Source: Chiloscyllium plagiosum (taxonomy: Eukaryota). From it: a stretch of DNA of 46,516 nucleotides. The stretch spans positions 11,060,392 to 11,106,907 of the forward strand of contig NC_057753.1 of assembly GCF_004010195.1 (NCBI RefSeq). The letters run 5' to 3'. The notes under the pieces were generated by a model, which made no database searches, was not told the DNA's origin, and saw only the letters and a program-made list of their open reading frames with translations. A program made the translations under genes and the position numbers. The stretch's first letter is position 1. Each line of letters opens with the position of its first letter. This document shows, piece by piece, positions 1-37,828 of the stretch.

Positions 1-243
1 AGGGACTGGATGTCCATGGTGAAGATAAGGCGTTGGGGGCCGGGGAAGCAAAAATCATGGAGGAGGTGGAGGGCGTGGGTGGTGTCCCGAACGTAGGTGG
101 GGAGTTCTTGGATTAAAGGGGACAGGACCGTGTCAAGGTATGCAGAAATGGGTTCGGTGGGGCAGGAGCAGGCTGAGACAATGTGCTCCTGCCCCACCGA
201 ACTCATTTCTGCATACTTTGACACGGTCCTGTCCCCCTTAGTC
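1..243 (-). mobile_element. Penelope-like element RT fragment with an inverted (fold-back) terminal segment
   Basis: Reverse complement of 1-183 translates IVSACSCPTEPISAYLDTVLSPLIQELPTYVRDTTHALHLLHDFCFPGPQRLIFTMDIQS, matching the RPIVS...FTMDVxSL part of PLE RT. 184-240 is the reverse complement of 114-170. Confidence 0.85.
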
Positions 244-1074: not shown

Positions 1075-1765
1075 CAAAAGTCACACAACACCAGCTTATA
1101 GTCCAACAGATTTATTTGTAAGCACGAGCTTTTGGAGCACTGCTTCTTCAACAGTTGGCTGTGGAGCAGGTTCAAAAGACACGGAATTTATAGCAATATA
1201 TCAGTGTCATGCAACTGAAATGATATTTTGAACAAACCTAGATTGTTAAGTCTTTTATCTTTTAAAATGGGTTACAGGTTTCAGTTCATTTATATGTAAA
1301 TCCCAGAACTACTTTTAAGTCACATTCTCCTTTTAAGTTAGGTTCGAGTCTACCTGTATCGCAATCTTGAGTCAGACTGGTTCTATTCCAAAGTAGGAAT
1401 TTACAAAATATTACATGGATTGACTGCCTGCAGATTGCGTATGTTTTGAGCAAAATAGAATGCATCTGCAAATGCAAATTCACCCCATAGACTTATATGT
1501 ATGTGCACATGTATGTGAGAAAGTGTGTGTTTGCGTGTGTGCATGCTTGGTAAAGTGTGAGAGAGATTAAGTACAAGCCTGTGAGAGGGTGTCAGCGTGG
1601 GGGGCGCATGTGTGTGTGTCTGAGAAAGAGCATGTGTATGAGAGAGGGTCTGTGTGAGTATGTGTGTATGTGAAAGTGTATAGTGCAGCGGGGTCACCTG
1701 TCGTGTGACATGAACCCAAGGTCCCAGTTGAGGCCATCCCGGGTTTCAGCCTCTGCTCGGCCACT
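1075..1765 (-). mobile_element. Penelope-like element 3' end: GIY-YIG C-terminus, CA/TG-rich UTR, pseudo-LTR with decayed hammerhead
   Basis: Minus strand encodes VAEQRL...RDGLNWDLGFMSHDR*. The pLTR reads ctgttgaagaagcagtgctccaaaagctcgtg...aataaatctgttggactataagctggtgttgtgtgac. Confidence 0.8.
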
Positions 1766-2444: not shown

Positions 2445-5150
2445 GGAACTATGAACTTGCACTCCAAAGTTTCTTTGTTCAGCAATACTCCCTAGGACCT
2501 TACAATTAAGTGTATAAGTCCTGATATGATTTGCATTTCCAAAATGCAGCACCTCACATTTATCTGAATTAAACTCCATCTGCCACTCCTCAGCCCATTG
2601 GCCCATCTGATCAAGATCCCATTGTACTCTAAGGTAACCTTCTTTGCTGTCCACTGAACCTCCAATTTTGGTGTCATCCACAAACTCACTAACTATACCT
2701 CCAATGTTCACATCATTTAAGTAAATGATGGAAAAGTAGTGGACTCAGCACCAATCCTTGTGGCACACCACTGGTCACAGGTCTCCAGTCTGAAAAGCAA
2801 CCCTCCACCACCACCCTCTGTCTTCTACCTTCAAGCCAGTTCTGTATCCGTTTGACTAGTTCTTCCTGTGTTTCATGAGGTCTTACCTTGCGAACCATGA
2901 GGAACCTTGTTGAACGCCTGACTGAAGACTGACACCCACCACTCCTCCCTCGTCAATCCTATATGTTACTTCAAAAAAACTTGGTCAAGTTCTTGAGATA
3001 TGATTTCCCATGCACAAAGCTATGTTGACTATCCCTAATCAGTCCTTGCCTTTCCAAATACATGTAAACCCTGTTTTTCAGGATTCCCTCCAACAACTTG
3101 CCCATCACTGATGTCAGGCTCACCGATCTATAGTTCCCTGGCTTTTCCTTACCACCTTTCTTAAATAGTAGCACCACATTAGCTAACCTACAGTCTTCTG
3201 GAACCTCACCTGTGACTATCGATGATACAAATATCTCAGCAAGGAGACCAGCTATCACTCCCATGCTTCCCACAATGTTCTGTGATACACCTGATTTGTC
3301 TTGTTGATTTATTCACTTTTATACATTTCAAGACATCCAGCACCACCACCTATGTCATATGGACATTGTTCAAGATGTCCCCATCTTTATCCCCACATTC
3401 TATACCTTCCACATCCTTCTCCACATTAAATACTGATGCAAAATATTCATTTAGTTTCTCCCACATCTCCTGCACCTCCACACACAAGCTGCCTTGCTGA
3501 TGTTTGAGGTCCTATTCTCTCCCTAGTTACCCTTTTGATTCTCCTTAATCCTATTTGCCAAAGCTATCTCATGTTCCCTTTTCACTCTCCTGATTTCCGT
3601 CAACTATATTCCTACTGCCTTTATACTCTTGTAAGAATTTGTTCAACTTCTCCTGTCTATACTTGTCATATGCTTCCTTCTTTTTGTTAACCAAAACCTC
3701 AATTTCTCTAATCACCCAGCATTCCCTACACCTACCAGCCTTTACGTTCAGCCAAACAGGAATATACTGTCTCTGAATTCTCGTTATTGCATTTTTGAAG
3801 GCTTCCCATTTTCCCTTTACCTGAGAACATCTGCCCCCAATCAGCTTTTGAAAGTTCTTGCCTAATACCATCAAAATTAGCCTTCCTCCAATTTTGAACT
3901 TCAACTTTTAGATCCTTATCCCCACATTCTATACCTTCCACATCCTTCTCCACATTAAATACTGATGCAAAATATTCATTTAGTTTCTCCCACATCTCCT
4001 GCACCTCCACACACAAGCTGCCTTGCTGATGTTTGAGGTCCTATTCTCTCCCTAGTTACCCTTTTGATTCTCCTTAATCCTATTTGCCAAAGCTATCTCA
4101 TGTCCCCTTTTCACCCTCCTGATTTCCATCAACTATATTCCTACTGCCTTTATACTCTTGTAAGAATTTGTTTGACTTCTCCTGTCTATACTTGTCATAT
4201 GCTTCCTTCTTTTTATTAACCAAAACCTCAATTTCTCTAGTCACCCAGCATTCTCTACACCTACCAGCCTTTACGTTCAGCCAAACAGGAATATACAGTT
4301 TCTGAATTCTCGTTATTGCATTTTTGAAGGCTTCCCATTTTCCCTTTACCTGAGAACATCTGCCCCCAATCAGCTTTTGAAAGTTCTTGCCTAATACCAT
4401 CAAAATTAGCCTTCCTCCAATTTTGAACTTCAACTTTTAGATCCTTTTCCATTTTCAATCTAATGGAATTATAGTCACTGGCTCCAAAGTGCTCCCTCAC
4501 TGACACCTCAGTCACCTTCCCTGCCATATTTCCCAAAAGTAGGTCAAGTTTTGCACCTTCGCTCATCGGAACATGCATGGACTGATTCAGAAAATTTTAT
4601 TGTACACACAAATTCCTCTCCGTCTGAACCCTAAACTCTATGGCAGTCCCTGTCTATGTTTGGAATGTTAAAATTCCGGACCATAACTACCCTATTATTC
4701 TTAAAGATAACTGAAATCTCCTAACAAATTTGTTTCTCAATTTCCTGACTATTAGGGGGTCTATATTACAATCCTAATAAAGGTGATCATCCCTTTCTTA
4801 TTTCTCAGTTCCACCCAAATAACTTGCCTGGATGTATTCCCAGGAATATCCTCCCTAAGTATAGCAGTAATAGTTTCCGTTATCAAAATCGCCACTCCCC
4901 CCTTTGTACCCCGGAACATTCAGCTGGCAGTCCTGCCCATCCATGAGGCCACGTTTCTGTAATTTCATCAGCCTTCCCTATTAGGCCTCTTGCATTGAAA
5001 TAAATGAAGTATAATTGATCAGTCCTACCTTGTTCTCAGCTTTATCCCTTCCTGCCCTGACTGTTGGACTCACTCCCTTTCCTAACTGTACAAATCTCAG
5101 GTTAATCTCTTTCCTCACTATGTCCCTGGGACCTATCCCCCACCTTATTC
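2445..5150 (-). mobile_element. Degraded CR1 LINE ORF2 (APE to RT)
   Basis: Minus-strand peptides GAKLDLLLGN..EHFGASDYN, KPGNYRSVSLTSV, VTSGVPQGLVL, EFVDDTKIGG, WQMEFNSDKCEVLHFG with many stops and frameshifts. Confidence 0.95.
3387..4444. repeat. 529-bp direct tandem duplication inside the CR1 (3387-3915 / 3916-4444)
   Basis: Near-identical ORFs 3569..3904 and 4098..4433 are offset by 529. The two units differ by scattered substitutions. Confidence 0.95.
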
Positions 5151-6319: not shown

Positions 6320-6468
6320 TGATCATTGGTTCTTCCAGCCTGCTGACCCACCAGTGGGCCCAGACTGGGGAGAGGCCATTCACCTGCTCTCAGTGCGGGA
6401 AGGACTTCACCCGCTCCTCCCACCTGCAGAGGCACCAGCAAGTTCATGTGCCATCGCAGGGGGATTGA
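6320..6468 (+). pseudogene. C2H2 ZNF gene remnant (last finger and stop)
   Basis: Translates [47 protein letters not shown], paralogous to the C-terminus of the intact gene ([20 protein letters not shown]). No upstream fingers remain. Confidence 0.9.
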
Positions 6469-8990
6469 AGGAGCCATGGCTGAGTGACATTATCGACTGG
6501 ATGATCCATCCAGTTACAGTTTGGAATCCCACCTTGGCAGATAGCAGAATTGAAATTTGGTCAGAAATCTGGAGTTCAGAATCTAACGATGAAACCATTT
6601 TCAGGAAGAAAAACAACCCCATCTGATTCACTCATGTCCTTTTTAGGGAAGGAAAGTGCCATTGCAGGAAAGGATTCACTCAGTCATCCCAGCTGCATCC
6701 TTTACCTGGTCTTGCCTACACGCGACTCCAGACCCACCCTCCTGCCACTAAGCGGGAGAAACTAACTTGGATACAGTGTGCAGGCTGAAATTGCTGAGTG
6801 AGGCAACACTTCCTACGGGTTAAGGCTGTATCAAGGATCGAATTACAAAAGGACAACTCGGTGTTGACCAATAGTAAAGGAAGCGAGGGATGGGGAAGGT
6901 GTGCACTTTGACCTTGAGCTGTTTTTAAAAGAAATAAGCTACTTTTCACATGCCTTTGCTGGGAAGATCTGAAGCTGTAACAAAGTTGGGTCTCAATAAA
7001 GGTTACCTGAATTCACCGTCTGACTCATTAAAAGGTGCAAGTTCCAAAAGGTTTTTGTTTTAAAGCAGCTAATTTCTTTCGGCCTCCAGCACTAAGTTTC
7101 CAATGTCGTATATCAGAAGAAGTAGTGAATGAGTAATTAATATTGTTAGAAATTGTAATTTTTTAGGACTGTAGGTTCATCATTTCATCAGCATTGTAAG
7201 GTTTACTGGCAGCAGCGGGAGGTATGGCTGTGTTCACTAGAAACAAAAATTAAAAGTCACACAATCAGGTTATAGTCCAACTGGTTTATTTGGAAGCACA
7301 AGCCTTTGGAGTGCTCTTCTTCATCAGGTAGTTGTGGAACAGGATCATAAAACATAGAATTTGTAGCAAGAGATTAGTGTCATGCAACTGAATTGAACAA
7401 ACCTAGATTATTGTTAAGTCTTTCATCTTTTAGAATGAGTTGCAGATTTCAGTTCATTAATATGGAAATCCTAGAACGACTTTTAAGTAATATTCTTGAT
7501 GCAATTTAAAGGTGACATTTCAGCTCAGTCAATGCATAAAAGGTGTGAGGTTAGAGTCTCTGTATCCCAATCTTGAATCAGACTGGTTCTATTTCTAAAG
7601 TAGGAATTTATAAAATATTACATGGATTGACTGCCGGCAGATTTTGTGCTTTTTGAACAAAATAGAATGTATCTGCAAATTCACCCATAGACTTTTGTGT
7701 GTGTGCATGGGTGCATCTGAGCAAAATTGAACGTATCTGCAAATATAATTCTGCAAATTCTGGCTCGAAGGTAGAAGACAGAGGGTTGTGGTGGAGGGGT
7801 GCCTTTCAGACTGGAGGCCTGTGACCAGTGGTGTGCCACAAGAATCGGTGCTGGGTCCATTACTTTTCATCATTAATATAAATGATTTGGATGTGAACAT
7901 AGGTATAATAAGTTTGCAGATCACACCAAAATTGGAGGCATAGTGGACAGCAAAGGAGGTTACCTCGGAGTACAGCATGATCAGATGGGCCAATGGGCTG
8001 AGGAGTGGCAGATGGAGTTTAATTTAGATAAATGCGAGGTGCTGCATTTTCGAAAAACAAATCAGAGCAGAACTTATACACTTAATGGTAAGGTCCCAGG
8101 GAGTGTTGCTGAACCAAGAGACCTTGCAGTTCAGGATCATAGTTCCTTGAAAGTGCAGTTGCAGGTGGATAGGATAGTCAAGAAGGCATTTGGTATGTTT
8201 TGGTTTATTGGTCAGAGCATGGAGTATAGGAGTTGGGAGTTCATGTTGCGGCTGTACAGGACATTGGTTAGGCCACACTTGGAATATTGAGTGCAATTCT
8301 GATGTCCTTCCTAACAGAAGTATGTTGTGAAACTTGACAGGGTTCAGAAAATATTTACAGGAAGTCGCCAGTGTATGAGAATTTGAGCTGAATCGGCTGG
8401 GGCTGTTTTCCCTGGCAGGTCGGAGGCTGAGGTTTATAAAATCATGAACGACATAATAAATAAGCAAAATCTTTTCCCTGGGGTGGGGGAGTCCAGAACT
8501 AGAGGGGCATAGATTTAGGGTGAGAGGGGAAAGATATAAAAGGGACCTAAGGAGCAACTTTTTCACGCAGAGGGTGGTGCATTTATGGAATGAGCTGCCA
8601 GAGGAAGTGGTGGAGGCTTGTACAATTACAGCATTTAAAAGGCATCTGGATGGATATATGATTAAGAAAGGTTTAGAGAGGTATGGGCCAAGTGCTAGCA
8701 AATGGGACTAGATTAGATTAGGATATCTGGTCTGCATGGACAAGTTGGACCAAAGGGTCTGTTTCCATGCTGCATATCTGTGACTCCAAATGCAAATTCA
8801 CTCTGTAGATGTGAGTATGCGCGCACGTGTGCACATGAGGTTGTGCGTGAGTGTGCATAAGAGAGTTTATATTTTGCATGTGCACATGCTTGGTAAAGTG
8901 AGATTATGATGGAGTATAAGCCTGTGAGAGGGTGAGAGTGTGGGGGTGTATGTGTGTGTGTGTTTGAGAGACAACATGAATGAGAGAGAT
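6450..8990 (+). repeat. Copy 2 of the ZNF-3'-end module; its Penelope segment (about 7245-8990, minus) is split by a CR1
   Basis: Same order of segments as 243-1765. The Penelope UTR resumes at 8788 (caaatgcaaattcac). Confidence 0.88.
7759..8787 (+). mobile_element. 5'-truncated CR1 LINE inserted in the Penelope UTR
   Basis: [54 protein letters not shown] and the tail ggaccaaagggtctgtttccatgctg. Absent from module copies 1 and 3. Confidence 0.95.
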
Positions 8991-11009: not shown

Positions 11010-11212
11010 TCTGGATCAGTGGTGCTGGAAGAGCACAGCAATTCAGGCAGCATCCGAGGACAGGCAAAATCGACGTTTCGGGCAAAAGCCCTTCAGCTTT
11101 TGCCCGAAACGTCGATTTTGCCTGTCCTCGGATGCTGCCTGAATTGCTGTGCTCTTCCAGCACCACTGATCCAGAATCTGGTTTCCAGCATCTGCAGTCA
11201 TTGTTTTTACCT
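11010..11212 (+). mobile_element. Penelope-pLTR-derived fold-back mini insertion (81-bp perfect inverted repeat)
   Basis: Arms 11009-11089 / 11096-11176 with loop ccttca. 15-bp TSD atgtgaggactcagt (10995-11009 / 11213-11227). Contains the hammerhead 3' half gggcttttgcccGAAACGTC. Confidence 0.9.
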
Positions 11213-12661: not shown

Positions 12662-12764
12662 CATGATTTGCCGGTGTTGGACTGGGGTGTACGAAGTTAA
12701 AAATCACACAACGCCAGGTTATAGTACCTGTTGGACTATAACCTGGTGTTGTGTGATTTTTAAC
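12662..12764 (-). mobile_element. Fold-back mini insertion of a second Penelope pLTR family
   Basis: 30-bp arms 12696-12725 / 12735-12764. TSD aacatcca(c/g)agcagt (12647-12661 / 12762-12776). Same sequence as the pLTR at 27081-27110. Confidence 0.85.
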
Positions 12765-12884
12765 ATCCAGAGCAGTAGAGAAACAGCAGCTGTATTTAAG
12801 AGGGGACTCCGGAGACGTGCCGTTTATTACGACGACACATTAGGAAATAGACACTGATTTTTTTTTTGCAAATCCAGCTAGAAC

Positions 12885-13334: not shown

Positions 13335-13960
13335 CCTTTATCCCGCCCGGATCCACCACCAGGACCGGCTCCTCGGACCCTCCTCCAGCTCCGGGGGGTT
13401 GTTGAGCTCCTGGGCTCCGGAGGCCGCGGGCGCCGGCTCCCTCTCCTCCACCGCCGACATTTTTAATTTGTTTTTCTCGTTCACCCGGTAACCGTCACCT
13501 CCCCCTTCCCGGGCCCCGGGAATTATACACAAATAAACAATAAACCCCACCGGGGACTGTCTCCTTTTCTTCACAACTTTTGCTTGAAAGGTTCCGGCTT
13601 CAATTTGAAATGTATTTTAAATGTATTTTCTGAGGTAAACGGTGCCTGTCTGCCCCCCTCCCTCCGTCAGAAACCGCCCGCTGAGTCGATGAGAAAACCG
13701 CAGCCTCGCGCCGCCATCTTTGTTTTTCTTCTTCTTCTCCTTCTCCTCCTTCAGTGACGCGCGTCATCCGCGCGCTCCCTCCAATCAGAGCGCACCTTAC
13801 TCCACCTGACCAATGGCGGCCGGCTTTGCGGTCCCTGTTTGTTCCGTCCCACCCCCACCCCGCCGAATGTCGCTCTCCGATTAGTCCGCACCGACCGCAC
13901 GCTTTGGGATTGACGGGGAGGTTCATGCGTACGTCACTGTCCCCGCCCCTTTCCCTTCCC
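13335..13960 (-). promoter_or_regulatory. CpG-island promoter and candidate first exon (copy A), pointing leftward
   Basis: High CpG density, YY1 motif CCGCCATCTT (about 13711-13720), CCAAT boxes (13781, 13810), CRE-like tgacgc/acgtca, GC box ccccgcccc (13941). Candidate start AAAATGTCG giving MSAVEEREPAP. Confidence 0.75.
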
Positions 13961-14067
13961 ATTCATTCATTATCAGTTCACTGCAATGGGCTCTGGGGGT
14001 AGGAGGGGGTGACCCATATTGAGGTGGAAGGTGTCCACATTCATTCAACAAAAGTGGGCTTGTTTCC

Positions 14068-14250
14068 TACAGTGGTAGTGTCCCTACCTCTGATCCTGAC
14101 GCCCAGGTTCAAATCCCACTGCTCCAGCAATGTTTAATAACATCCTCAATCATTTTTTTTGGCATAAGTGACACGACACTCAGGTTACAGTCCAACAGAT
14201 TTATTTAAAGCACAAGCTCTTGGATCATAGCCCCTTCATTAGGTGAAATC
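14068..14250. mobile_element. tRNA-like SINE fragment (about 14068-14145, plus) and decayed Penelope pLTR (about 14165-14250, minus)
   Basis: cagtggtagtgtccctacctctg...aggttcaaatccca; minus strand cctaatgaaggggc..ccaagagcttgtgc..aataaatctgttggactg. The paralog is at 31490-31660. Confidence 0.6.
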
Positions 14251-14456
14251 ATGAAAACAGCGCAGGAAACAGCATTCAGGTAAATGATCAGCCAGGGATG
14301 GTGATGAAAGACAGAGCATCACAACGGTCAATTGCCAACTACCATTCTTATTTCTGATCTTATTAATACATGACTGATAAAACATTGGGGAACAAATAGT
14401 CAAGTGCCTCAATTTTGTAAGTCTCCATTTTGTGATAAAGTTTGCCTTACAAAAAC

Positions 14457-15053
14457 AGGATCTGGACCAGATGGGCCAATGGGCTGAGTGGAAATGGAGT
14501 TTAATTCAGATAAATGAGAGGTGCTGCATTTTGGGAAAGCAAATCTTAGCAGGACTTATACACTTAATGGTAAGGTCCACTTAATGGTAAAGTGTTGCTG
14601 AACAAAGAGACCTTGCAGTGCAGGTTCATAGCTCCTTGAAAGTGGAGTCGCAGGTAGATAGGATAGTGGCTGAGGGGTGATCTTATAGAGGTTTACAAAA
14701 TTATGAGGGGCATGGATAGGATAAATAGACAAAGTCTTTTCCCTGGCATTGGGGAGTCCAGAACTAGATGGCATAGGTTTAGGGTGAGAGGGGAAAGATA
14801 TAAAAGAGACTTAAGAGGCAACTTTTTCACGCAGAGGGTGGTAAGTGTATGGAATGAGCTGCCAAAGGATGTGGTGGAGGCTGGTACAATTTCAACATTT
14901 AAGAGGAATTTGGATGGGTATATGAATAGGAAGGGTTTGGAAGGATATGGGCCAGATGCTGGCAGGTGGGACTAGATTGGGACGGGATATCTGGAAGCGT
15001 TGGACCGAAGGGTCTGTTTCCATGCTATATATCGCTATGACTCTATGACTCTA
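14457..15053 (+). mobile_element. CR1 3' fragment with internal deletion
   Basis: MRGMDRINRQSLFP...FFTQRVVSVWNELP and a (ctatgact)n tail. Confidence 0.95.
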
Positions 15054-15263
15054 AAATGGCTAAGTACATTGACCATGAGAATGAATTGAGGAATGCACAA
15101 ATCTTGGCAATAACATTGTGTCTGTCCTTTCCCAGACAGAGTTTCCACAACCTAATGAATAGAATGCTCACAGTATCTTAGATTTTATCCAAGTTGACAC
15201 AAATGGCACCAGACGGAGAAAACATTAATAACCTTGTTTTAATCTATGTGAACAACACTAAAT

Positions 15264-15302
15264 GGATTCCTGAAGAAGGGCTCATGCCCGAAACGTCGAT
15301 CC
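15264..15302 (+). ncRNA. Minimal type I hammerhead ribozyme motif (Penelope pLTR type) in an 88-bp insertion 15265-15352
   Basis: ggattc CTGAAGA a gggc-tcat-gccc GAAA cg TC gatcc has an intact CUGANGA/GAAA core, a 4-bp stem II, palindromic ACGU in place of stem III and a short stem I. TSD taaatg (15259-15264 / 15353-15358); empty site in the paralog near 31155-31170. Confidence 0.75.
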
Positions 15303-15615
15303 TCCTTGGATGCTGCCTGACCTGCTGCGCTTTTCCAGCAACATATTTTCAGTAAATGTATTAATTATCTAGTTCATATTATGGAAACTTAATTACAGCT
15401 ATCAATATTATATTGTGTCAACTAGAACATACAAAATTGTTACACTCATAAGGAGTATAAAATATGCTGCGCTTTTGTTAAAAATCAGAGATTTTCACTA
15501 GTACATACAGGGATATCTTGATTAATACTCGATTATAGACTATTGATTTCTCGATGGCTTAATTACAATTAATTTGTAACTTACGTGTGGTCTGAGAATT
15601 TCTAAGTCAACATTT

Positions 15616-15629
15616 TAGTGTCATGAATC
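15616..15629 (+). promoter_or_regulatory. Degenerate primer-binding site, tRNA-His
   Basis: TAGTGTCATGAATC lies 3 nt after the LTR end and matches TGGTGCCGTGACTC at 10/14. The paralog (30884-30897, minus) TGGTGCTGTGGCTC matches 12/14. Confidence 0.65.
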
Positions 15630-16504
15630 TTTTTTCAACATAGGGACCGTTTCTATAGGCTGATTAAGTGACCAAAAGAGTTTTGATTGGATGCAACAGT
15701 GGTGGGGGGGCCCCTTAGGTATTTTTCCTTAAGACCACTCCTTGTGTCCCAACAGATGATCTGCCCCTTACCTAGTACCTCGAAGGGATTGAACAAACAA
15801 CCTGGACCAGGATTATAAGGTAAGAAAGTTTTTGTTTTTTATGAGGTTGCTCTAGGTTGCTGCAGAGTGACCTTAGCTATTCCGTATTGTTCCTCAGATA
15901 AAACAGTTAGACTGGTGACCACAGTCAGAGAAGTGCTCCCCACTACCTGAGAAATTGGGCTTAGAGACCTGACTCCTTTGGATATGGCCAGTTAAATTTC
16001 TGAGGTTATAGAAATAGGAAGGCAGTTTCTGTAAATTTCTCACTCTGTATTATTGATATGGCCGGTTGAAATTTTTTATTGTTGAGCAAGTAATGATACA
16101 GAAACAATGGGACAGTCCCTTTATGTAGTTGGAAAGGAGACTCCCTTTCAGACTGTGTGAGAGAGAGAGAATACCTGATCAGGAAAATGATTTATAGGGG
16201 TTAGAGGTCCTCAGGGAAATTGGAAATTTTGGTAAGTTCTCTGTGAATTGGGCAACTTGTTAAATTGTAATGTACAAATTAAAGGACGTCCAGTTTGAAT
16301 TATTGAATGATTGTGATAGTGTGTGTGAGAGAAAGGCAACTGTCAATAGAATGGGGAACTGTTTCCAAAACTGTTACTTTGTCAACAAACAGATGAAATG
16401 GACACAAAAAACTGAGAAGCCATTTCCACTTGATGGCACATTTAATTGTGATTGTAGAAAACAATTGGCAGAAATTTTGAAAACTTTGAATATTCAAAGG
16501 AAAC

Positions 16505-16530
16505 ACAGAGAGAGATAGAGAGAGAGAGAG

Positions 16531-16573
<43 letters not shown>
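16505..16573. repeat. (GA)n-(CA)n compound microsatellite
   Basis: Directly visible. Confidence 0.95.
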
Positions 16574-16576
<3 letters not shown>

Positions 16577-17146
16577 GGACAGGCTTTTGGTTTAGCTCTC
16601 ACTAAACTAAGTGTTAACTCTTTGTGGTCTGTTTTGAACGTACTTTTGTTTGTTGGTGGTTACATGTGGTCCGATATAATCTTTGTTGTTTTTTGCCCCT
16701 GGAACTCAAGATCCGGGAATGTTTTGATTTAAGTCTGCATTTTGGAAAATCATGGTAATTCGTAAATGTTGTCTGTGCCTTTTAATAGGCTTGATCATGC
16801 ATGGTTAATGTTATATTCTTTTGAGGGACTTTCTACACTAATTTAAATCAATATGTGCCAGGAAAGGTTGATTTTTTAAAAATTGGGTTAAGATTGGTAA
16901 AAGTCTCTTGGAATTTGATTTTATCACGTTTGGAATTCATTTTCTGGCCAGAGTAAATGACCAAATACTGTTTGACCGGATAAGCTAATTTTTAATTCCA
17001 GAAATGCAAGGCCGTTTGAACTAGATTTTAGTAAAATGTTCTAAAATCTGAGAAAACTGATGAAGGTAGGAGGGTGATGTTGAACAATTTTCAGGTATTG
17101 AAGATGTGGGAACACCTCCTTCAATATCTGAAATTGTGGAGATTGT

Positions 17147-17457
17147 GGGCGGCACGGTGGCACAGTGCTTAGCACTGCTGCCTCACAGCGCCTGAGACCC
17201 GGGTTCAATTCCCGCCTCAGGCGACTGACTGTGTGGAGTTTGCACGTTCTCCCCGTGTCTGCGTGGGTTTCCTCCGGGTGCTCCGGTTTCCTCCCACAGT
17301 CCAAAAGATGTGCAGGGTCAGGTGAATTGGTCGTGCTAAATTGCCTGTAGTGTTAGGTAAGGGGTAAATGTAGGGGTATGGGGTGGGGTTCGCTTCGGCG
17401 GGTCGGTGTGGACTTGTTGGGCCGAAGGGCCTGTTTCCACACTGTAATGTAATCTAA
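17147..17457 (+). mobile_element. Full-length young HE1-type V-SINE
   Basis: tRNA head with A/B boxes, V-domain tgtgtggagtttgcacgttctccccgtgtctgcgtgggtttcctccgggtgctccggtttcctccca, CR1-derived tail. CpGs are intact. Confidence 0.95.
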
Positions 17458-19390
17458 CCTGCCCTTGTATGTGTTGTTGTCGATCTATAATCAGTTAAGC
17501 TATCATAATAAAAATCTCACTAGGATATTCTTAAAAATAACCTCTCCCTTCTCTGAAAGAAAAGTAGTCTGCTGCTGTGGTATTAAGATGTAGGAATTCA
17601 TAGTTACAGAGAGTGATGACATCTTGACCCTTTCAGATAGGTTCACGTGCAAATAAAACATTTATTCAATATTTAATGATGATGATTATGGTAGCCAAAG
17701 AAGCAGTTATTTACATTTTATTTGTATATCTTTACAATGGAATTACTGGAATGGACAGATTGACATGATAAGGCCAATCACAATTTGTTTGGTTAGTTGG
17801 AGATAAAATTTATTCTGTAAATGACTTTTTTCAGTTTGTCCTAATTTTGCGAATGTAAAAACAGACACGATAAATCGATTATCTCAGAGGTTATAAATTA
17901 GCATGTTTGTGCTCACAGACATGAAAATATGCATTTTCTATGTGAGACTTGACCATTTGAATTTGTATTTCTGGGCTTGGTGTCTTTTAAAATCTGTGGA
18001 ATTAATGAGGGTTAAATTGAAATTCCAGTAGTGTAAATCAGACCTACAGCATTTCAGAACACTTTAAATGGCTTTTAGTTTCTCTTTGAAGGCAGTGGCA
18101 AAGGAAATTGTGGATGTGGTTTAAATAGATTTTTAATTTGTATCAACAATGCATTATGCACAGTTTCATCCAAGCTTTGTTAGGTAGTTTAATTAACTAA
18201 CTAGGCTTATGTTAGTGGTCCACAGGAAGTATTGCACAAGTTTTTCAGATTAATTTTGAATTCTGTATCATATTTTGGAGAAAAACGTAATCTAATAGCT
18301 GAGTGGAATTGGAGTTATTTGGATGCAGGCTAAATGTTGCACTTATTAGGAAAAATTTGATACAATTTTCTGCATACGACCCTAAGCAGATTTTATTCAT
18401 TTTGTGACTTTAAAGTCTGTTTGTTATTCTTAATTAACAGTGAAATGTGTCAGCCACTTGTTCAGTTTCCATCTCTCAATTAGAGTACGTGCTTATATTA
18501 GTCAATATATATTTTACGTGCTTATATTAGTCAATATACATTGTCAGTGATCTGTGTCATTGCCTCATGGTTAATTTTAAACATGGTTGTAATAATTAAT
18601 GTTCACCTGGACCATCCCTTAAATCAAATTGAGCATTGTACATGCAATGACCATACAAAGAAAAGTATAGGAAGCAGAGCGAGAGAAGAAACGTTAAGGA
18701 AAGTGAAACTTGCAGTGTTCCTCATGCAAAGAACTGGCACTGAAAACGCAACTTTAATAACCTTCTATTCTGTAGCCATTTTGATTTAGTGTTACATGAT
18801 AAACTTGCCGAACAGTATGAAAAATCTATTTCTTGGAATTATGTACACTACTATTTCTGGATAGAATGGAGGCATTAACTCTCTTAAATGTTCAAATTGA
18901 ATGCATTAATGACAAGTCAGAAAGGAAAAATTAAAGAATTGACATCAGAAGGTGCTAAAGAAAGGTCACTCTCTTGAGAAAGTGTGGCATGAACAAACAG
19001 ATCAGCCAAAACAGCAGATGTTGTGGGTACATTGAAGATTTTAGGACTAAATAATATTGTAGTTGAGTAACTTCCATTTTAATTCTAAAATTTAAAAGAA
19101 GTGCTAAATAACTGTAAATTTTAAATTTAAACACTTTATTATACTGTGTATATGACATTTAAGTATTGATTCTGTAGCCTCTGTATAGGTCAGGAAACTA
19201 GAGACCTGGGATGTGGCATCTTGTGAACAGGCGGTAAACCTAATTTGAAAGAAAAATTGTGACAAATAGTGTAAATTATTAATTAAAACTGGAAGCACAA
19301 AGCCAATATTAAATGGAAAGATACCTTGTTGGCCAGTTGGAGGAATAATGCACGTGTATATACAACAGATGGAACTCCCAGAAATTGGGA

Positions 19391-19417: not shown

Positions 19418-20078
19418 TGTTAAAAGTTGAGTCTGAATGGGTAGATGAGGGGTGAAAAAGGGAACAGGAGAAACACTGGGACACTAAGGAAGATAAGAAA
19501 GGAGTTGAAGCACAGCGCTGTAAAAATAATCTAAGTTTTACTCTGCATCCTGAGCCTATGTCTGGCATACTGACACTATTTGAGGAAGGGGATGAGACTG
19601 ATGGGAATGAGCCCAGAACATCTCCTGATAGTCCCCAGCACACCCCCTAATTCTAAACTTCCCCTTTACTCGGAAGATCAAGTCGTCCAATATCGGGTCA
19701 CCAGCTTCATCATGAGGATGAGCAGCCTAGACCATTCTCAACCAAGGGCCGTCGCAGGAAACTGAGTAACCTGACCGCAAGGAGAAACCAGCCCAATTTA
19801 CTCAATATGTCCGAAGGACAATACATACTCCTCAGGACTTGTTTGCTATATGTTCCCCTGAAGAAGTTACCACATGGCAAGGACAGATGGGTCAGGGTGG
19901 TGTAGAGCCAGTCCACAGTTACGACGACTTGAAGGAGAGATTCCCTCACAATGATTCCCAGGCAGATCACTTAATCCAGTCATTAGAATGAGCTTTACAA
20001 CAACCTGTGAACATTAGTTACGTACTGGAATGCAAACCCAAACCTGGGGAGTCGGGAGGTGATTATGGAGAACAGTTT

Positions 20079-21392
20079 AGAGTTCTGAGGGAGGTGGCTG
20101 AGGAAATAGCGGAGGCGTTGGTTGAGATCTTTCAAAAGTCACTGGAGTCAGGGAATGTCCCGGATGATTGGAAGATCACTGTTGTAACCCCCTTGTTCAA
20201 GAAAGGATCAAGGCAAAAGATGGAAAATTATAGGCCAATTAGCCTAACCTCAGTTGTTGGTAAAATTCTAGAATCCATCATTAAGGATGAGGTTTCTAAA
20301 TTCTTGGAAGAGCAGGGTCGGATTAGAATAAGTCAACATGGATTTAGTAAGGGGGGGGTCATGCCTGACAAACCTGTTGGAGTTCTTTGAAGAGGTGACA
20401 AGTAGGTTTGACTGGGGAAACCCAGTGGATGTGGTCTCCCTAGACTTCCAAAAGGCCTTTGATAAGGTGCCACACGGGAGGCTGCCGAGCAAGGCGAGGG
20501 CCCATGGTGTTCGAGGTGAGCTACTGGTATGGATTGAGGATTGGCTGTCTGACAGAAGGCAGAGAGTTGGGATAAAAGGTTCTTTTTCGGAATGGCAGCC
20601 GATGACAAGCGGTGTCCCGCAGGGTTCAGTGTTGGGGCCGCAGCTGTTAACATTATATATTAATGATCTGGATGAAGGGACTGGGGGCATTCTAGCGAAG
20701 TTTGCCGATGATACAAAGTTAGGTGGACAGGCAGGTAGTACTGAGGAAGTGGGGAGGCTGCAGAAGGATCGAGACAGTTTGGNNNNNNNNNNNNNNNNNN
20801 NNNNNNNNNNNNNNNNNNNNNNNNNNNNNNNNNNNNNNNNNNNNNNNNNNNNNNNNNNNNNNNNNNNNNNNNNNNNNNNNNNNNNNNNNNNNNNNNNNNN
20901 NNNNNNNNNNNNNNNNNNNNNNNNNNNNNNNNNNNNNNNNNNGGCCCATCGGGTCCACTCCGCCATTCAATCATGGCTGATGGGCATTTCAACGCCACTT
21001 ACCCGCACTCTCCCCATATCCCTTAATTCCTTGAGAGATGGCTTGGAGAGGGTGGACGCTAGGAAATTGTTTCTGTTAGGTGAGGAGACTAGGACCCGTG
21101 GGCACAGCCTTAGAATTAGAGGGGGTAAATTCAGAACAGAAATGCAGAGACATTTCTTCAGCCAGAGAGGGTGGGCCTGTGGAATTCATTGCCACAGAGT
21201 GCAGTGGAGGCTGGGACGCTAAATGTCTTCAAGGCAGAAATTGATAAATTCTTGATGTCACAAGGAATTAAGGGCTATGGGGAAAATGCGGGTAAGTGGA
21301 GTTGAAATGCCCATCAGCCATGATTGAATGGCGGAGTGGACTCGATGGATAGAAATGGCCTTACTTCCGCTCCTATGTCTTATGGTCTTATA
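20079..21392 (+). mobile_element. 5'-truncated CR1 LINE (contains a 160-N gap)
   Basis: NYRPISLTSVVGK, LDFQKAFDKVPH, SGVPQGSVLGP, KFADDTKLGG and the tail cctatgtcttatggtcttat. Confidence 0.95.
20783..20942. other. Assembly gap (160 N)
   Basis: Run of N. Confidence 1.
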
Positions 21393-21756
21393 GTTTGTTT
21401 CCTGTTACGGAACATTTGCAAGTGATCAAGCCTTTAATTGAAAAGCTAACTCCCCTTTGTTTAACGCTATGCTTTTGCAATGTATTCCTCCTGGTATCGC
21501 TGACATGATCCAGACAAACAATATGAACTGGTCCAGGAATTCCCTGTCGCTAATGAGGTAAGCGGTAATCTTCTGGGGTGGCCAGAACGAGCCCAAACCA
21601 TGATCCGAATATGTCCAGCAACTTCGTGATCCCTATACCTCATGTGCCAACCCCAACGAGGTTCGTTGAGACCAGGATACCAACTGGGGGTGAAACCTAC
21701 CTCAGATGCCCAAGTGACCACCACTGAGTAACCCTTTCCCGATCGGAAATAATAAC

Positions 21757-22410
21757 TTGACTTTTACAATGGTTAAGCTCAGTGACCATGGGAATGGAAT
21801 AAGGAATGTACAGATTTGGCAAAAAATAGCATTTGTTTCTTTCCCATGACAGTTTTGTTGATTAGATTAGATTCCCTACAGTATGGAAACAGGCCCTTCG
21901 GCCCAACAAGTCCATACCGACCCTCTGAAGAGTAACCCACCCAGACCCATTCCCCACATATGCACCTAACACTATGGGCAATTGCTATAATGAAATGGCT
22001 AAAATACAGATGTATCCCAGGTATTAATCTATAGCTGACGTAAATAAAGCCACATAAATGGCTTTTGTTTACTTAAGGGAAACTATACTGAAAGCATTAA
22101 CTATCTGGTTCACATGCAGTGACACAAATACAGACACATCAGCAGCTATGCTTAATAATACTAAATTTATTAATTATCTAATGGGAACCTAATAAAAAAT
22201 ATTATATGGTGAGAATTAGAGAAAATAAGATAATAACGCATATTAAGGGTACAAATTATGCTGTCCCTAAGATTTAGAGATTCATTAGCATATTCAGGGA
22301 TATCTATGATTGATACTCTTGATTATTGACTATTGATCTGTCACCAGCTGAATTACAATACAGTGTGTTTTTTTTGTAACTTACTTGTGGTCTGAGAATT
22401 TGAGTTAACA
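21757..22410 (+). mobile_element. ERV 3' LTR (5' edge unclear; contains a SINE tail fragment at about 21861-21985)
   Basis: Diverged direct repeat of 15055-15612. It ends gagttAACA at 22410, abutting ZNF 3'UTR sequence. Confidence 0.75.
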
Positions 22411-22462
22411 CCCAGAACTGGACTGATAGTCCAGTCAATAACGGCACACAGCCGTAGCTCCT

Positions 22463-23404
22463 TCAATCCCTCTGCAATGGCAAGTGAACTCGCTGGTGCC
22501 TCTGCAGGTGGGAGGAGCGGGTGAAACCTTTCCCACACTCAGAGCAGATGAATGGCCTCTCCCCGGTGTGAATCTGCTGGTGTTTCTGCAGGCTGGAATA
22601 GTCCGTGAATCCCTTCCCGCACACAGAACAGGAGACCAGTCTCTCCTCGGTGTGGATCTGCCCGTGCGCCAGCAGGGCAGTTGAATGGGTGAAACCTCTC
22701 CCGCAGACGGAGCAGATGAAGGGCCTCTCCCCAGTGTGAACACGCCGGTGTCTCTGCAGGGCAGAGGAGTTAGTGAATCCCTTCCCACACTCAGAGCAGG
22801 TGAATGGCCTCTCCCCGGTATGAATGTGCCGGTGTCTCCGCAGGTCAGAGGAATTAGTAAATCCCTTCCCGCACTTGGTGCAGGTGAATGGCCTCTCCCC
22901 GGTGTGGACCCGTTGGTGTCTCCGCAGGGCAGATGAACTATTGAACATCTTCCCGCACATGGAGCAGGAAAACGGCCTCTCTTCAGTGTGAATGCGCTGG
23001 TGCATCAGCAGGGTAGACAACCGACTGAACGCCTTCCCGCACATGGAGCAGGAAAACGGCCTCTCCTCAGTGTGGATGCGCTGGTGCATCAGCAGGGTAG
23101 ATGACTGGGTGAACACCTTCCCACACACGGAGCAGGAAAATGGCCTCTCTTCAGTGTGGATGCGCCAGTGCGTTCGCAGGGTAGATGACTGACTGAACTC
23201 CTTCCCACACACAGAGCAGGTGAACGGTCTCTCCCTTGTGTGAACCCGCTGGTGGGTCACCAGGGTGGATAAATGAATGAATGCCTTCTCGCACACAGAG
23301 CAGGTGAATGGTCTCTCCCCCGTGTGACTGCGCCGATGGCGTTCAAGCAAGGATGGGAATTTGAATTCCTTCCCACAGTCCCCACATTTCCACGGTTTCT
23401 CCAT
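22463..23404 (-). CDS. Intact C2H2 zinc-finger protein, 11 tandem fingers, 313 aa, no effector domain in this exon
   Basis: Uninterrupted ORF MEKPWKCGDCGK... with 11 CxxC-x12-HxxxH units and TGERP/TEERP linkers. An in-frame TGA lies shortly upstream of the ATG at 23404. Confidence 0.93.
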   Translation of the reverse strand: MEKPWKCGDCGKEFKFPSLLERHRRSHTGERPFTCSVCEKAFIHLSTLVTHQRVHTRERPFTCSVCGKEFSQSSTLRTHWRIHTEERPFSCSVCGKVFTQSSTLLMHQRIHTEERPFSCSMCGKAFSRLSTLLMHQRIHTEERPFSCSMCGKMFNSSSALRRHQRVHTGERPFTCTKCGKGFTNSSDLRRHRHIHTGERPFTCSECGKGFTNSSALQRHRRVHTGERPFICSVCGRGFTHSTALLAHGQIHTEERLVSCSVCGKGFTDYSSLQKHQQIHTGERPFICSECGKGFTRSSHLQRHQRVHLPLQRD

Positions 23405-23484
23405 CACACGGGAATTCTCGTTTCTCTCCAGCTTTGAAACTCAGTTGAAGGACCACTCACACACGGAACGTGTTCAGTCTCTCG

Positions 23485-24290
23485 CCACTGCCATTCATCA
23501 AGCTTGCTCTGCAATTCAAGAAGATCATGTGTGTCCTGTTGTGTCCTTAATTCCATTTCCTGCCTGCCTCCATAACCTTTCATTCCCTTGTCACTCAAAA
23601 TTCTTTTCAATTCAGCCTTGAATACATTCAAAGAGCCAGTCTCTACTACTCCCTGTGGGGGAGCATTGCAAAAACTAACAAGAGAGAATAATTTATTCAT
23701 CTCTGCCTAAAATGAGATACCACGTTTTTGTAATCTGGGTCTTCAAATTCTAGATTCTCTGACAAGGAAGCATTTTATCTAAATCTACCCTTACAAGCTC
23801 AGTTCTGGTCACCCAATTATCAGAAGGGTATTATCAAACTAGAGAGAGTTCACAGGAAACTTACAAGTTGTTGCCTGGTGTGGAAGATTTGAAGAAATGT
23901 TGGATCGGCTGGGCCTTTTTTCACTGGAGTGTAAGAGGTTGTGAGAAGGGAAGTTCATAAAGTAATGAGAGGTATAAATATAGACGATTTCACAAATGGG
24001 GGCATATTTATAATGTGAGGAGAGAGATCTGAAAAAAAGACAAGGACCTTTTTTTTTCATAGAGTGTGGGTCACATGTAGAATGAACTTGCTGAAGAAGT
24101 GGTAGATGCTGGTACAATTACAACATTTAAAAGATTTTTGGATAGGTACATGAATAGGAAAGGTTTGGAGGGATATGGGCCAGGAGCAGGCAGGCAGGAC
24201 AGGTGCGATTACGTTCGGCATGGACCGATTGGACTGAACGGTCTGTTTCTGTGCTGCGTAATTCTGTGACTATAACTCTATGACTGTACT
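23485..24290. mobile_element. Old CR1-type 3' fragments in the putative ZNF intron (about 23485-23790 minus; 23795-24290 plus)
   Basis: PQGVVETGSLNVFKAEL (minus); gaagtggtagatgctggtacaattacaacatttaaaag and the tail gtctgtttctgtgctg (plus). Confidence 0.8.
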
Positions 24291-24475
24291 AGAAAAGCAC
24301 AGCAGTCAGGCAGCATCCGAGGAGCAGGAAATTTGAAGTTTCAGGCAAAAGCCCTTCATCCGGAACTTTCGCTCGAAACGTCAATTTTCCTGCTCCTCGG
24401 ATGCTGCCTGACCTGCTGTACTTTTCCAGCACCACTCTAATCTCGACTCTGATCTCCAGCAGTGCTTACTTTCGC
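24291..24475 (+). mobile_element. Penelope-pLTR-derived fold-back mini insertion (imperfect arms)
   Basis: 15-bp TSD ctctatgactgtact (24276-24290 / 24476-24490). Arms about 24292-24352 / 24366-24426. The minus strand has a mutated core cGGATGAagggcttttgcctGAAActtc. Confidence 0.88.
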
Positions 24476-24640: not shown

Positions 24641-24760
24641 GTAAAAACAAGGACTGCAGATGCTGGAAACCAGAGTCTAGATTAGAGTGGTGCTGGAAAA
24701 GCACAGCAGTTCAGGCAGCATCCGAGGAGCAGGAGAATTGACGTTTCGGGCAAAAGCCCA
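24641..24760 (-). mobile_element. Penelope-pLTR-derived 120-bp insertion without fold-back
   Basis: 16-bp TSD caacagtgagaccaag (24625-24640 / 24761-24776). Starts at hammerhead stem II gggcttttgcccGAAACGTC. Confidence 0.88.
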
Positions 24761-25719: not shown

Positions 25720-26263
25720 TGGGGATTCCCTTCCCCAAAGGTCTCTCCCCAGATGCATTAACACTGGGGAGAGACCTTTCTCCTGCTGTCAGTGTAGGCA
25801 GACATTCATTAGTGCATCCCACCTCATGACACACCAGAGCAATCACACCCGCGACAGGCAGTTCATCTGCGGGAAAGCATTCATTGATTCTTCCAGCCTG
25901 CTGAAACACCAGCAGGTCCATACTGGATAGGGTCCATGTGTAGGCAGGGGTCAGTCAGATGGGCGATCTGTGGAAGCACCAATGGGTGTACGTGGTCAAG
26001 AGGCCATTCACCTGCCCCGAGGGAGGGAAGGGCTTCACTCATGTGACCAACTTGCAGAAGCAGGAGCAGTTCTGCATGTGGGAGAGGACCTTCAGATGCC
26101 CCGCGTGTGGGAAGGGGTTGACTTGCTCGGCTAAGCTGCTGACCCACCAGCGGGTTCACACCGGGCACAGCCCGCTCACCTGCTCTCAGTGCGAGAAGGG
26201 CTTCATTTGCTCCTCCCACCCGTGGAGTACCAACAAGTTCACATGCCATCACAAGGGGATTGA
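25720..26263 (+). pseudogene. C2H2 ZNF pseudogene
   Basis: TGERPFSCCQCRQTF..HLMTHQSNH, RPFTCPEGGKGF, FRCPACGKGL..LLTHQRVHTG, LTCSQCEKGF; stops, frameshifts and lost Cys/His residues. Confidence 0.9.
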
Positions 26264-27822
26264 AGGAGCGATGGCAAGTGACAATTTCAACTGCACTATC
26301 AACCCAGTTCTGGGGACTCCTGGGTTCGAATCCCGCTGTGGCAGATGGCGAAATTGGAATTCGGTCAGAAATCTGGAGTTCAGAATCAAATGATGAAATC
26401 ATTTTCAGGGGAAAACAAATCCCCATCTGATTCACTCATGTCCTTTTTAGGGAAGGAAACTGCCATTGCGGGAAAGGATTCACTCAGTCATCCCAGCTAC
26501 ATCCTTTACCCAGTTTGGCCTGCACATGACTCCAGACCCACAGCCGTGTAGTTGACTCTTGATATTGTCCCCCCTCCCCCGACACATGAGCAGCGAGCAA
26601 GTCACTTGGATACAGTGTGTAAGTTGAAATTGCTGAGTGAGGCAATACTTGCTACAGGTTAACGCTGTACCAAGGATCCAGTTACAAAGGGACAACTCAG
26701 CTGACGAATAGTAAAGAAAGTGGTGGCGGTGGGGGTAATGTTTGTGCTTTGACCTTGTGTTGTTTTAAAAAACTACTTTTTGTACGCCTTTTTGCTGGAA
26801 GACCTGAAGCTGTAACAAAGTTGGATCACAGTAAAGGTTACCTGAACTTACTGCCGGGCTCAGACTCTCATTGAAAGCTGTGAGACACAAAAGGTTTCTG
26901 TTTTAAAACAGCTCATTTCTTACAGCCTTGTCATGTATCAGAAAGAGCAGTGAATGAGTAGCTGTTATCATTAGAAACTTAAAATTTTCATCTTTGCAGA
27001 TACTGCATCGTTTCATCAGCATTGTAAAGTTTACTGGCATCAGCGGGAGATGTGGGCTGTATTATCTAGAAATAAAGTTTAAAAATCACACAACACCAGG
27101 TTATAGTCCAACAAGTTTATTTGGAAGAACTAGTTTTGGGAGGGGTGCACCTTCATCAGGTAGCTGTGGGGAGATCATAAGACACAAATTTATCGCAAAT
27201 GATTACAGCATCATGCAACTGAAATGATATATTGAACAAACCTAGATTTCTGTTAAGTCTTTCATCTTTTAGAATGGGTTGCAGGTTTCGGTTCATTAAT
27301 ATGTAAATCCCAGAACTTTTTCTAAGTCACATTCTTGAGATAACTTAATGTTTTATTTAAAAACGTGACATCTCAGTTCAGACTATGATGTGATGTTAGA
27401 GTCTGTCTGTATCCCAATCTTGACTGGTTCTATTTCCAAAATATTTTGCGCCTTCTGAGTAAAATATAATGGATCTGCAAATATAATTCGGCAAATGCAA
27501 ATTCACCCCATAGACTTTGATGTGTGTATGCATGCATGAGAGAGAGTGTGTGTGAGTGTGTTCACGTGATATGCACGGGTGAGTGCGCATGAGAGAATGT
27601 GTGTTTGCGTATGTGCATGCTTGGTAAAGTATGTGTGTGATGGAATGTAAGCCTGTGTCTGAGAGACAGCGTGCATATGAGAGGGTCTGTTTGAGTGTGT
27701 GAGTATGTAAGAATGTGTGTGTCTGAGAGGGAGTGTATGGTGAAGTAGGGTCACCTGCAGTGTGACATGAATCCAAGGTCCCGGTTGAGGCCATCCTCAT
27801 GGGTTCTGAACTTGGCTATCAG
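26246..27822 (+). repeat. Copy 3 of the ZNF-3'-end module, including a Penelope 3' end (about 27078-27822, minus)
   Basis: Colinear with 243-1765. The minus strand encodes LIAKFRTHEDGLNRDLGFMSHCR* and has pLTR cctgatgaaggtgcacccctcccaaaactag. Confidence 0.9.
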
Positions 27823-37710: not shown

Positions 37711-37828
37711 GGGCTAATGCCCGAAACGTCGATTCTTCTGTTCCCTAGATGCTGCCTGACCTGCTGCGCTTCTCCAGCAACACATTTCCATCTCTGATCT
37801 CCAGCATCTGCAGACCTCATTTTCTCTT
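37711..37828 (+). mobile_element. Penelope-pLTR-derived 118-bp insertion
   Basis: gggctaatgcccGAAACGTCgattcttctgttccctagatgctgcctgacctgctgcg...ccagcatctgcagacctc; possible TSD cgtt(g/a)atg. Confidence 0.85.

What the first reader, a model, noticed from the sequence alone, without database searches (positions are those of the whole stretch)
15259..15358. Intact minimal hammerhead ribozyme inside an ERV LTR
Seen: CTGAAGA-a-gggc(tcat)gccc-GAAA-cg-TC with short flanking complementarity (ggattc/gatcc). It is an 88-bp insertion with a taaatg TSD, and the paralogous LTR near 31160 shows the empty site. It is the only copy in the window with all catalytic core bases. Established: PLE hammerheads lack helix III and use the ACGU palindrome to cleave as dimers. 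Inference: it could cut plus-strand transcripts after 15297.
Basis: partly seen in the sequence, partly recalled or inferred. Interest (0 to 1): 0.7.

Follow-up and report, generated by a model that had tools for sequence, protein, structure and literature searches.

The report
Penelope hammerhead stub in decayed ERV
This is a real 88-base end-piece of a very abundant jumping gene (likely Penelope-type) that carries a known tiny self-cutting RNA motif and landed in what is likely the long terminal repeat of a decayed retrovirus in a shark-like genome; it is one of tens of thousands of such pieces and likely does nothing at this spot.

Summary
Observation confirmed. A complete minimal type I hammerhead core lies at 15270-15297 inside an 88-bp insertion (15265-15352) with a target-site duplication. 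Two paralogs show the empty site (31158-31163 on -, 22162-22167 on +). It is the only intact core of its family in the window. About 30,000 contig pieces per DNA run lay on the 88 bp. Family variation in the motif falls on N7, loop II and CpG sites, as a hammerhead predicts, and the same core covaries and sits beside Penelope RT/GIY-YIG sequence in unrelated animals. The host is likely a long, decayed ERV LTR (Gag remnant downstream, same-orientation repeat beyond it); the 31160 copy is an inverted segmental duplicate. Cleavage at this locus is unlikely: the 5-bp helix I is a private accident, the catalytic register is a minor fold (11% or less), a dimer cut after 15297 needs a partner's core, and no RNA read crossed the unique flanks (one sample, weak test). 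Known kind (Cervera and De la Pena 2014). The scan has noted such stubs many times in this and other genomes.

The parts
15259..15264 (+). Left copy of the target-site duplication (6 bp; 15259-15268 if read as 10 bp with one substitution)
15265..15265 (+). G found in neither the empty site (T) nor the family's upstream sequence (C): untemplated G or a point change in a 10-bp TSD
   Evidence: (loose ends before 15266)
15265..15352 (+). 88-bp Penelope-like pLTR stub; carries a private 6-bp deletion and a private T-to-C change at 15301; ends where the family's optional tail begins
15264..15269 (+). Helix I 5' arm (C2.1 = 15269); G15264 and G15265 come from the target or junction
15270..15297 (+). 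Minimal type I hammerhead core: CUGANGA, extra A, 4-bp helix II, GAAA, palindromic CG, UC; predicted scissile bond 15297/15298
   Evidence: features as listed in PMC4209133
15298..15302 (+). Helix I 3' arm
15353..15358 (+). Right copy of the target-site duplication (15353-15362 if 10 bp)
15052..19213 (+). Host block A: likely long 5' LTR (or LTR plus leader) of a decayed ERV, with later insertions; AATAAA at 17507 kept in paralog B; termini not found
19214..19231 (+). Primer-binding-site-like 18-mer starting TGG (label from recall, tRNA match not tested); similar sequence in paralog B
19770..21627 (+). Degraded Gag-like frames (19770-20078, 21394-21627) split by a CR1-like LINE fragment
21765..22420 (+). 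Block C: same-orientation homolog of 15052-15610, likely a truncated 3' LTR; empty site at 22162-22167
   Evidence: 79% identity
28329..32921 (-). Block B: inverted duplicate of 13440-19262 including the CpG island; empty site at 31158-31163
   Evidence: 82-87% identity

Best explanation
The 88 bp are a short retrotransposed copy of the hammerhead-bearing end repeat of a very abundant, likely Penelope-type retroelement family, inserted with a target-site duplication into a likely decayed ERV LTR, and the motif is likely inert here. Shown: the insertion, two empty paralogs, the intact core, the family's abundance, free variation at N7 and loop II, the Gag remnant. Inferred steps: (1) the element's GIY-YIG endonuclease nicked an AT-rich site; (2) reverse transcription began internally, at the tail-less start site that matches 15352; (3) it stopped 88 nt later at the first letters of the hammerhead, either by running off the 5' end of an uncut RNA (G15265 would then be cap-derived, a reading taken from earlier scan notes) or by annealing at a 3-nt ATT match with the target; (4) since the copy spans the scissile bond, its template was uncleaved RNA. 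Order of events (inferred from identities): proviral integration (A vs C 79%), inverted duplication (A vs B 82-87%), then the stub. The core is kept by selection in the mobile masters, not in stubs like this one.
For: 32,943, 30,253, 2,810 and 3,525 contig pieces laid in four DNA runs, with depth concentrated on 15265-15352. Listed variants of 2% or more across 15270-15298 fall only on N7, the four loop II positions and CpG dinucleotides (3 of 43 rows not shown). Core CpG sites differ in 3.6-9.2% of X1 depth, like a CpG outside the motif (8.0%), as neutral decay predicts. Sister copies in the window show the Penelope layout: fold-back pairs with a tail on one arm only, and TSDs of 8 (1 mismatch), 14, 15 and 16 bp; tail and inverted pLTR are described in bioRxiv 2021.04.23.441226 and PMC11167929. 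In 101 distinct motifs from metagenome contigs found by the core alone, helix I pairs in 96, 94, 83 and 69 of 101 at positions 1-4; over 18 clusters 54 pairs against 32.4 shuffled, 0 of 10,000 shuffles as high. 37 of 121 such loci match a Penelope-like ORF by tblastn (two are the query's own contig), and that ORF has weak RVT_1 and GIY-YIG hits. Against local activity: C2.1-G1.1 pair probability 0.11 in isolation and 0.002-0.03 with 100-400 nt of context; the double-hammerhead fold scores -21.1 against -26.6 kcal/mol for the best dimer fold.
Against: No full-length member of this family with an RT-endonuclease frame was seen, so the Penelope label rests on structure and on the shared core; no genome was held. 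The family's own helix I is weak (C-G, U-A, U.U, A-U, read from the majority letters), so covariation in helix I within this family is not shown. Folding energies ignore tertiary contacts and protein help. The RNA test is one sample at about 2% of the run. The LTR reading lacks TG...CA termini, a polypurine tract and a proviral TSD, and implies an LTR of over 2 kb; Gag_p30 hits in the homologs are below Pfam's cut-off.
Confidence: 0.85

Rival explanations
1. The copy is a working ribozyme at this locus: the junction G's and the private T-to-C change gave it a longer helix I than its family has, and it cuts plus-strand RNA (for example an upstream antisense transcript from the CpG island at 13.3-14.0 kb), with help from the element's protein or a partner copy.
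For: All core letters intact; helix II pair probability above 0.9 in every context; catalytic register only 1.3 kcal/mol above the best fold of the isolated 45-mer. A contig of a related species shows no change over 15219-15293 (X16 record 9). The anole Penelope hammerhead cleaves with protein help (PMC11167929).
Against: Catalytic register 3% or less in context; no helix III; no intact same-strand partner in the window; no read on the unique flanks and no end pile-up. An unchanged 30-nt core is expected by chance at the 2-4% divergence of that species.
Confidence: 0.06
2. The repeat is an independent non-autonomous SINE- or retrozyme-like family of about 90-130 nt that copies itself from its own short RNAs, not a by-product of full-length Penelope elements.
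For: All pieces in the window are short; many genomic contigs run into unrelated sequence before 15266 (agreement 0.36). Non-LTR retrozymes are proposed derivatives of pLTRs and were found in the one chondrichthyan sampled (bioRxiv 10.64898/2026.07.22.740005, passages).
Against: No tandem array here; RNA reads continue upstream of 15266 and downstream of 15352 into shared family sequence (agreement 0.57 and 0.70); fold-back pairs with a one-sided tail are Penelope insertion marks.
Confidence: 0.07
3. On the host only: block A is not an LTR but ordinary spacer DNA of a duplicated zinc-finger gene unit, and the Gag remnant is an unrelated neighbour.
For: A-B homology runs on into a CpG island; no LTR termini found; C covers only 560 bp of A and abuts a zinc-finger exon; block A has no Pfam hit in six frames.
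Against: A and C lie in the same orientation on either side of a PBS-like site and a Gag remnant; AATAAA is kept about 280 nt before the PBS-like site once an A-only 1.4-kb block is set aside; parts of the block have some 10-30 times single-copy depth.
Confidence: 0.3

Closest known systems
Minimal hammerheads (min-HHR) in pLTRs of metazoan Penelope-like elements; Cervera and De la Pena 2014, PMC4209133 (parts 1-2 of 4 read; 2 supplement files searched, file 1 not searchable)
   Same: Type I core without helix III, extra base between 9 and 10.1, G10.1-C11.1, palindromic 15.2-16.2, short helix I, thousands of dispersed single copies from truncated elements, fish Neptune/Poseidon/Xena included.
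   Different: Helix II is 4 bp (7-8 bp in the schistosome families); the family's helix I is weaker than the 4-5 bp described; 'shark' and 'Callorhinchus' did not occur in the two supplement files searched.
Poseidon element of Anolis carolinensis (PAc); Frangieh et al. 2024, PMC11167929 (parts 1-2 of 4 read)
   Same: Hammerhead in the pLTR, AT-rich target, two internal RT start sites giving an optional 30-40 nt tail, uncleaved RNA as the main template, no RNA-seq ends at the cut site.
   Different: No ORF is linked to this stub; no start codon opening a long frame lies in it; activity untested here.
Non-LTR retrozymes (PMC7229834, listing only; bioRxiv 10.64898/2026.07.22.740005, passages)
   Same: Non-coding, type I hammerhead, pLTR-related.
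   Different: Retrozymes are tandem repeats that can form dimers and circles; this is a single dispersed stub.
Shark ERVs with p30-like Gag (CmiERVs: Han 2015, PMC4422223, abstract only)
   Same: Host context: Gag-like remnant whose homologs include shark proteins with a CCHC knuckle and weak Gag_p30 similarity.
   Different: No pol or env seen, termini undefined, lineage not assigned.

Membership tests
Minimal type I hammerhead (min-HHR) | Conserved core C3 U4 G5 A6 N7 G8 A9, G12 A13 A14 A15.1, U16.1 H17 | tested here: met
Minimal type I hammerhead (min-HHR) | Extra base 9/10.1, G10.1-C11.1, helix II, palindromic 15.2-16.2 | tested here: met
   A15277; 4-bp helix II with pair probability 0.91-1.0; CG at 15294-15295
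Minimal type I hammerhead (min-HHR) | Helix I closing directly on C3 and C17 | tested here: inconclusive
   C-G and U-A can form, then a bulge and 3 pairs from locus-specific letters; register probability 0.002-0.11; family majority has only 3 pairs around a U.U
Minimal type I hammerhead (min-HHR) | Covariation in helices among copies | tested here: inconclusive
   Met across unrelated animal families sharing the core; within this family the helices are near-invariant and only N7 and loop II vary
Minimal type I hammerhead (min-HHR) | Self-cleavage | not testable with these tools
   No read-end pile-up at 15297/15298 in one RNA sample; library not suited to ends
Rfam hammerhead families | Match to a curated covariance model | tested here: not met
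   No hammerhead family among 21 matches at E up to 5
Penelope-like element (EN+) | RT plus GIY-YIG frame flanked by this repeat | not testable with these tools
   No genome held; none beside the stub. The same core lies 132 nt behind such a frame in L003/L004; an unlinked Penelope-like RT fragment lies at window 3-243
Penelope-like element (EN+) | 5' truncation, inverted partial pLTRs, optional 30-40 nt tail on one end, AT-rich target | tested here: met
   Fold-back pairs at 11010-11212 and 24290-24475, tail present in 37708 and 24759 copies and absent here, AT-rich site
ERV LTR (host) | Direct-repeat pair flanking PBS and gag | tested here: inconclusive
   A and C in the same orientation around a PBS-like site and a Gag remnant, but C covers only 560 bp
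ERV LTR (host) | TG...CA termini, polypurine tract, proviral TSD | tested here: inconclusive
   Not found by eye; the left end is overlaid by a CR1-like insertion and C is truncated
ERV LTR (host) | PBS complementary to a host tRNA 3' end | not tested
   Resemblance is from recall; no tRNA set was available
Non-LTR retrozyme | Head-to-tail tandem units | tested here: not met
   Single copy with unique flanks

The most novel reading that the evidence does not exclude
The insertion junction by chance completed a helix I that the mobile family lacks, creating a locus-specific working hammerhead that trims plus-strand (upstream antisense) RNA from the neighbouring zinc-finger-type CpG promoter, and it has been kept intact in related shark species: a ribozyme switched on by where it landed.
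Probability: 0.04. Interest if true: 0.6.

Novelty: new member of a known kind. Interest (0 to 1): 0.13.

Why it matters
As a single locus it matters little: it is one of a very large number of hammerhead-bearing stubs of a described kind. Its use is as a clean dated example, with two empty paralogs that fix both junctions and order three events (provirus, duplication, stub). It also shows that the copy was made from uncut RNA and ends at the tail-less start site, in line with the anole in vitro data. Three paper searches found no study of these motifs in sharks beyond one chondrichthyan genome in a 2026 retrozyme preprint, whose supplements I could not see; most subscription papers are outside the library.

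Tried and rejected
Whole genome: none held, so copy counts come from contig pieces and are not copy numbers. Rfam: no hammerhead match. A custom covariance model was not built, since training motifs were found with this copy's own core and a match would be circular. Family-tail pattern: 0 hits in metagenome contigs; core patterns: 0 in viral contigs. Sequencing-run search: no RNA holder listed. Run X22 laid 0 reads, no test. Presence of the insertion in other individuals and in a related species is suggested by contigs carrying 26-30 element letters joined to unique flank, just under the tool's 31-letter bridging rule, and no joint skipping the 88 bp was listed in 4 of 4 runs. My first reading, that the host is not ERV-derived at all, was dropped after the Gag homologs; Pfam on the broken frames, a word-seeded search and PDB had found nothing. 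The descriptor hit at 1021 (-) was rejected as chance. The 17 outside motifs in alignment A2 (90.3% paired, covariation 0.57 against 0.14 shuffled) were hand-picked for diversity from 103 distinct ones; the unselected counts are those. Lunse et al. on Penelope hammerhead dimers was not held and is known to me only through PMC6765202 (passages). A paper search on cap-derived G gave nothing usable; that idea rests on recall and on earlier scan notes. The bacterial promoter scan is not informative for this genome.

Full report
Setting. The window is repeat-rich vertebrate DNA with CR1-like LINE pieces, SINEs and C2H2 zinc-finger exons. The named relatives of one of its broken frames are all shark proteins (4 named of 10 looked up), so I call it shark-like. 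No assembly was held.

The motif. At 15270-15297 the plus strand reads as a complete minimal type I hammerhead core. It has the features that Cervera and De la Pena list for Penelope minimal hammerheads and that their search did not ask for: an extra base after A9, G10.1-C11.1, and a palindromic 15.2-16.2 (PMC4209133). The bare sequence pattern is at chance level, but a structural descriptor expects 0.057 hits per shuffled window, and with the strict features only this site passes even with one mismatch allowed. Rfam's models do not pick it up.

The insertion. Against the inverted paralog the filled site has 88 extra bases plus a 6-base duplication. A third copy of the host sequence at 22162 is also empty. 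The left junction has two readings: a 6-bp TSD followed by a G that is in neither target nor family, or a 10-bp TSD with one substitution whose last three letters, ATT, also match the family. Sister insertions in the window have TSDs of 8-16 bp, which slightly favours the second; earlier scan notes on this genome report an extra G at a shared start point and read it as run-off from a capped RNA (e1-8159767), which fits the first. One locus cannot decide. The right end, 15352, is where the family's optional tail begins: reads continue there into shared sequence (381 reads, agreement 0.70), the 37708 and 24759 copies keep the tail, and the fold-back pair at 11010-11212 has it on one arm only. 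That matches the tail and inverted-pLTR layout of Penelope insertions (bioRxiv 2021.04.23.441226, passages) and the two internal RT start sites of the anole element (PMC11167929).

The family. 32,943 and 30,253 contig pieces were laid in two large DNA runs of the species, with summed depth of millions on the 88 bp against about 10 on unique flank. Across 15270-15298 the listed variants of 2% or more are N7 (A to T, 95 of 534 RNA reads), all four loop II positions, and CpG sites (3 of 43 rows hidden). CpG sites in the core decay at 3.6-9.2%, like one outside it at 8.0%. So the masters kept the core and the inserted copies rot neutrally. Reads needed 85% identity to be laid, which hides heavily decayed copies. 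To test the fold independently I scanned metagenome contigs with the core alone: 121 loci, 103 distinct motifs, 101 with both flanks. Helix I, which the pattern did not specify, paired in 96, 94, 83 and 69 of 101 at its first four positions with several pair types; collapsed to 18 clusters the excess over shuffles held (54 against 32.4, 0 of 10,000; relatedness can inflate this). The window's C-G at 2.1-1.1 is a pair type absent from those 101. 37 of 121 loci match a 595-aa frame with RT and GIY-YIG similarity, mostly its C-terminal end. These are other families: they share only the 28-nt core with the window.

Would it cut here? Probably not. Even so the best fold slips by one base; the catalytic pair C2.1-G1.1 has probability 0.11 in a 45-mer and 0.002-0.03 in longer context, and A15.1-U16.1 does not form. 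A double hammerhead scores 5.5 kcal/mol above the best dimer fold; these energies leave out tertiary contacts. If two copies pair through ACGU, each core faces the other copy's scissile bond (my inference from the geometry), so the cut after 15297 needs an intact partner, and none lies on this strand in the window. Published monomers of this class do not cleave and dimers cleave weakly (PMC4209133; PMC6765202, passages); the anole motif needs its protein and is not required for insertion in vitro (PMC11167929). In one single-cell RNA sample (about 2% of the run) 1,983 family reads were laid in both orientations, none covered the unique flanks beyond the TSD, and no starts or ends piled up. That is a weak test.

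The host. I first rejected the ERV label, because the 31160 copy is inverted and its homology covers 13440-19262 including a CpG island (82-87% identity): it is a segmental duplicate. But 15052-15610 also recurs in the same orientation at 21765-22420 (79%), and between the two lie a PBS-like 18-mer and broken frames at 19770-20078 and 21394-21627. The second frame found 17 relatives at E up to 0.001; 7 of 17 carry a Pfam zinc knuckle, 2 of 17 a sub-threshold Gag_p30 match, and 8 of 17 match both frames in order across a LINE insertion. An AATAAA shared with the duplicate lies about 280 nt before the PBS-like site once an A-only 1.4-kb block is set aside. The likely reading (about 0.65-0.7) is a decayed provirus with a long 5' LTR, an internal deletion and a truncated 3' LTR. 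The stub then sits near the left end of the LTR, likely upstream of the LTR's own start site, and arrived after both integration and duplication. Termini, polypurine tract and tRNA match were not established. The CpG island carries a promoter motif (label from recall) that points away from the stub, at 13720 on - and at 32366 on + in the duplicate, so plus-strand RNA over the stub would have to be upstream antisense transcription (inference).

Verdict. The scan has recorded such stubs many times (1,136 findings hold the search words; unchecked notes, not used as evidence). Nothing here marks this copy as functional.

Noticed in passing
window 1075-1150 (-), about 7250-7330 (-), 12693-12765, 14163-14238 (-), about 27070-27160 (-), 31505-31580 (+): Degenerate pieces of a second short repeat family with a hammerhead-like 5' half; none keeps a full core.
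   Followed up: partly
window 3-243 (-): Fragment similar to a Penelope-like RT (tblastn E 2e-20, 62% identity) inside a fold-back at 109-245.
   Followed up: partly
window 19770-21627 (+): Degraded Gag-like frames split by a CR1-like fragment; relatives are unnamed or uncharacterized shark proteins.
   Followed up: yes
window 22463-23440 (-); remnants at 6320-6515, 25944-26393, 36991-37320 (+): An open 325-aa frame with 11 C2H2 fingers and three decayed paralogs: a zinc-finger cluster with duplicated flanks.
   Followed up: partly
window 11010-11212, 24290-24475, 24641-24760, 37712-37828: Four more insertions of the same family with TSDs of 15, 14, 16 and 8 bp; two are fold-backs joined inside the hammerhead region.
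   Followed up: yes
joints 15264-15269 to 15300-15303 on opposite strands: Some genomic contigs and RNA reads join the start of the motif to the reverse strand just past the predicted cut; such fold-backs could supply a long helix I. Few contigs, not examined further.
   Followed up: no
window 17768-19193: 1.4-kb AT-rich block present in A and absent from duplicate B, with no match elsewhere in the window.
   Followed up: partly
window 41962-42070 and 33652-33708 (+): Weak U6 snRNA matches below Rfam's cut-off, inside CR1-like sequence; probably chance.
   Followed up: no
window 42879-44580 and 3383-4450: Near-identical tandem duplications (640, 232 and 529 bp periods, 98-100%) inside LINE fragments: recent duplications or assembly artefacts.
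   Followed up: no
L004:1005-3663: Penelope-like element in a metagenome contig: 595-aa RT/GIY-YIG frame between inverted 130-bp repeats, each with the same hammerhead core.
   Followed up: partly
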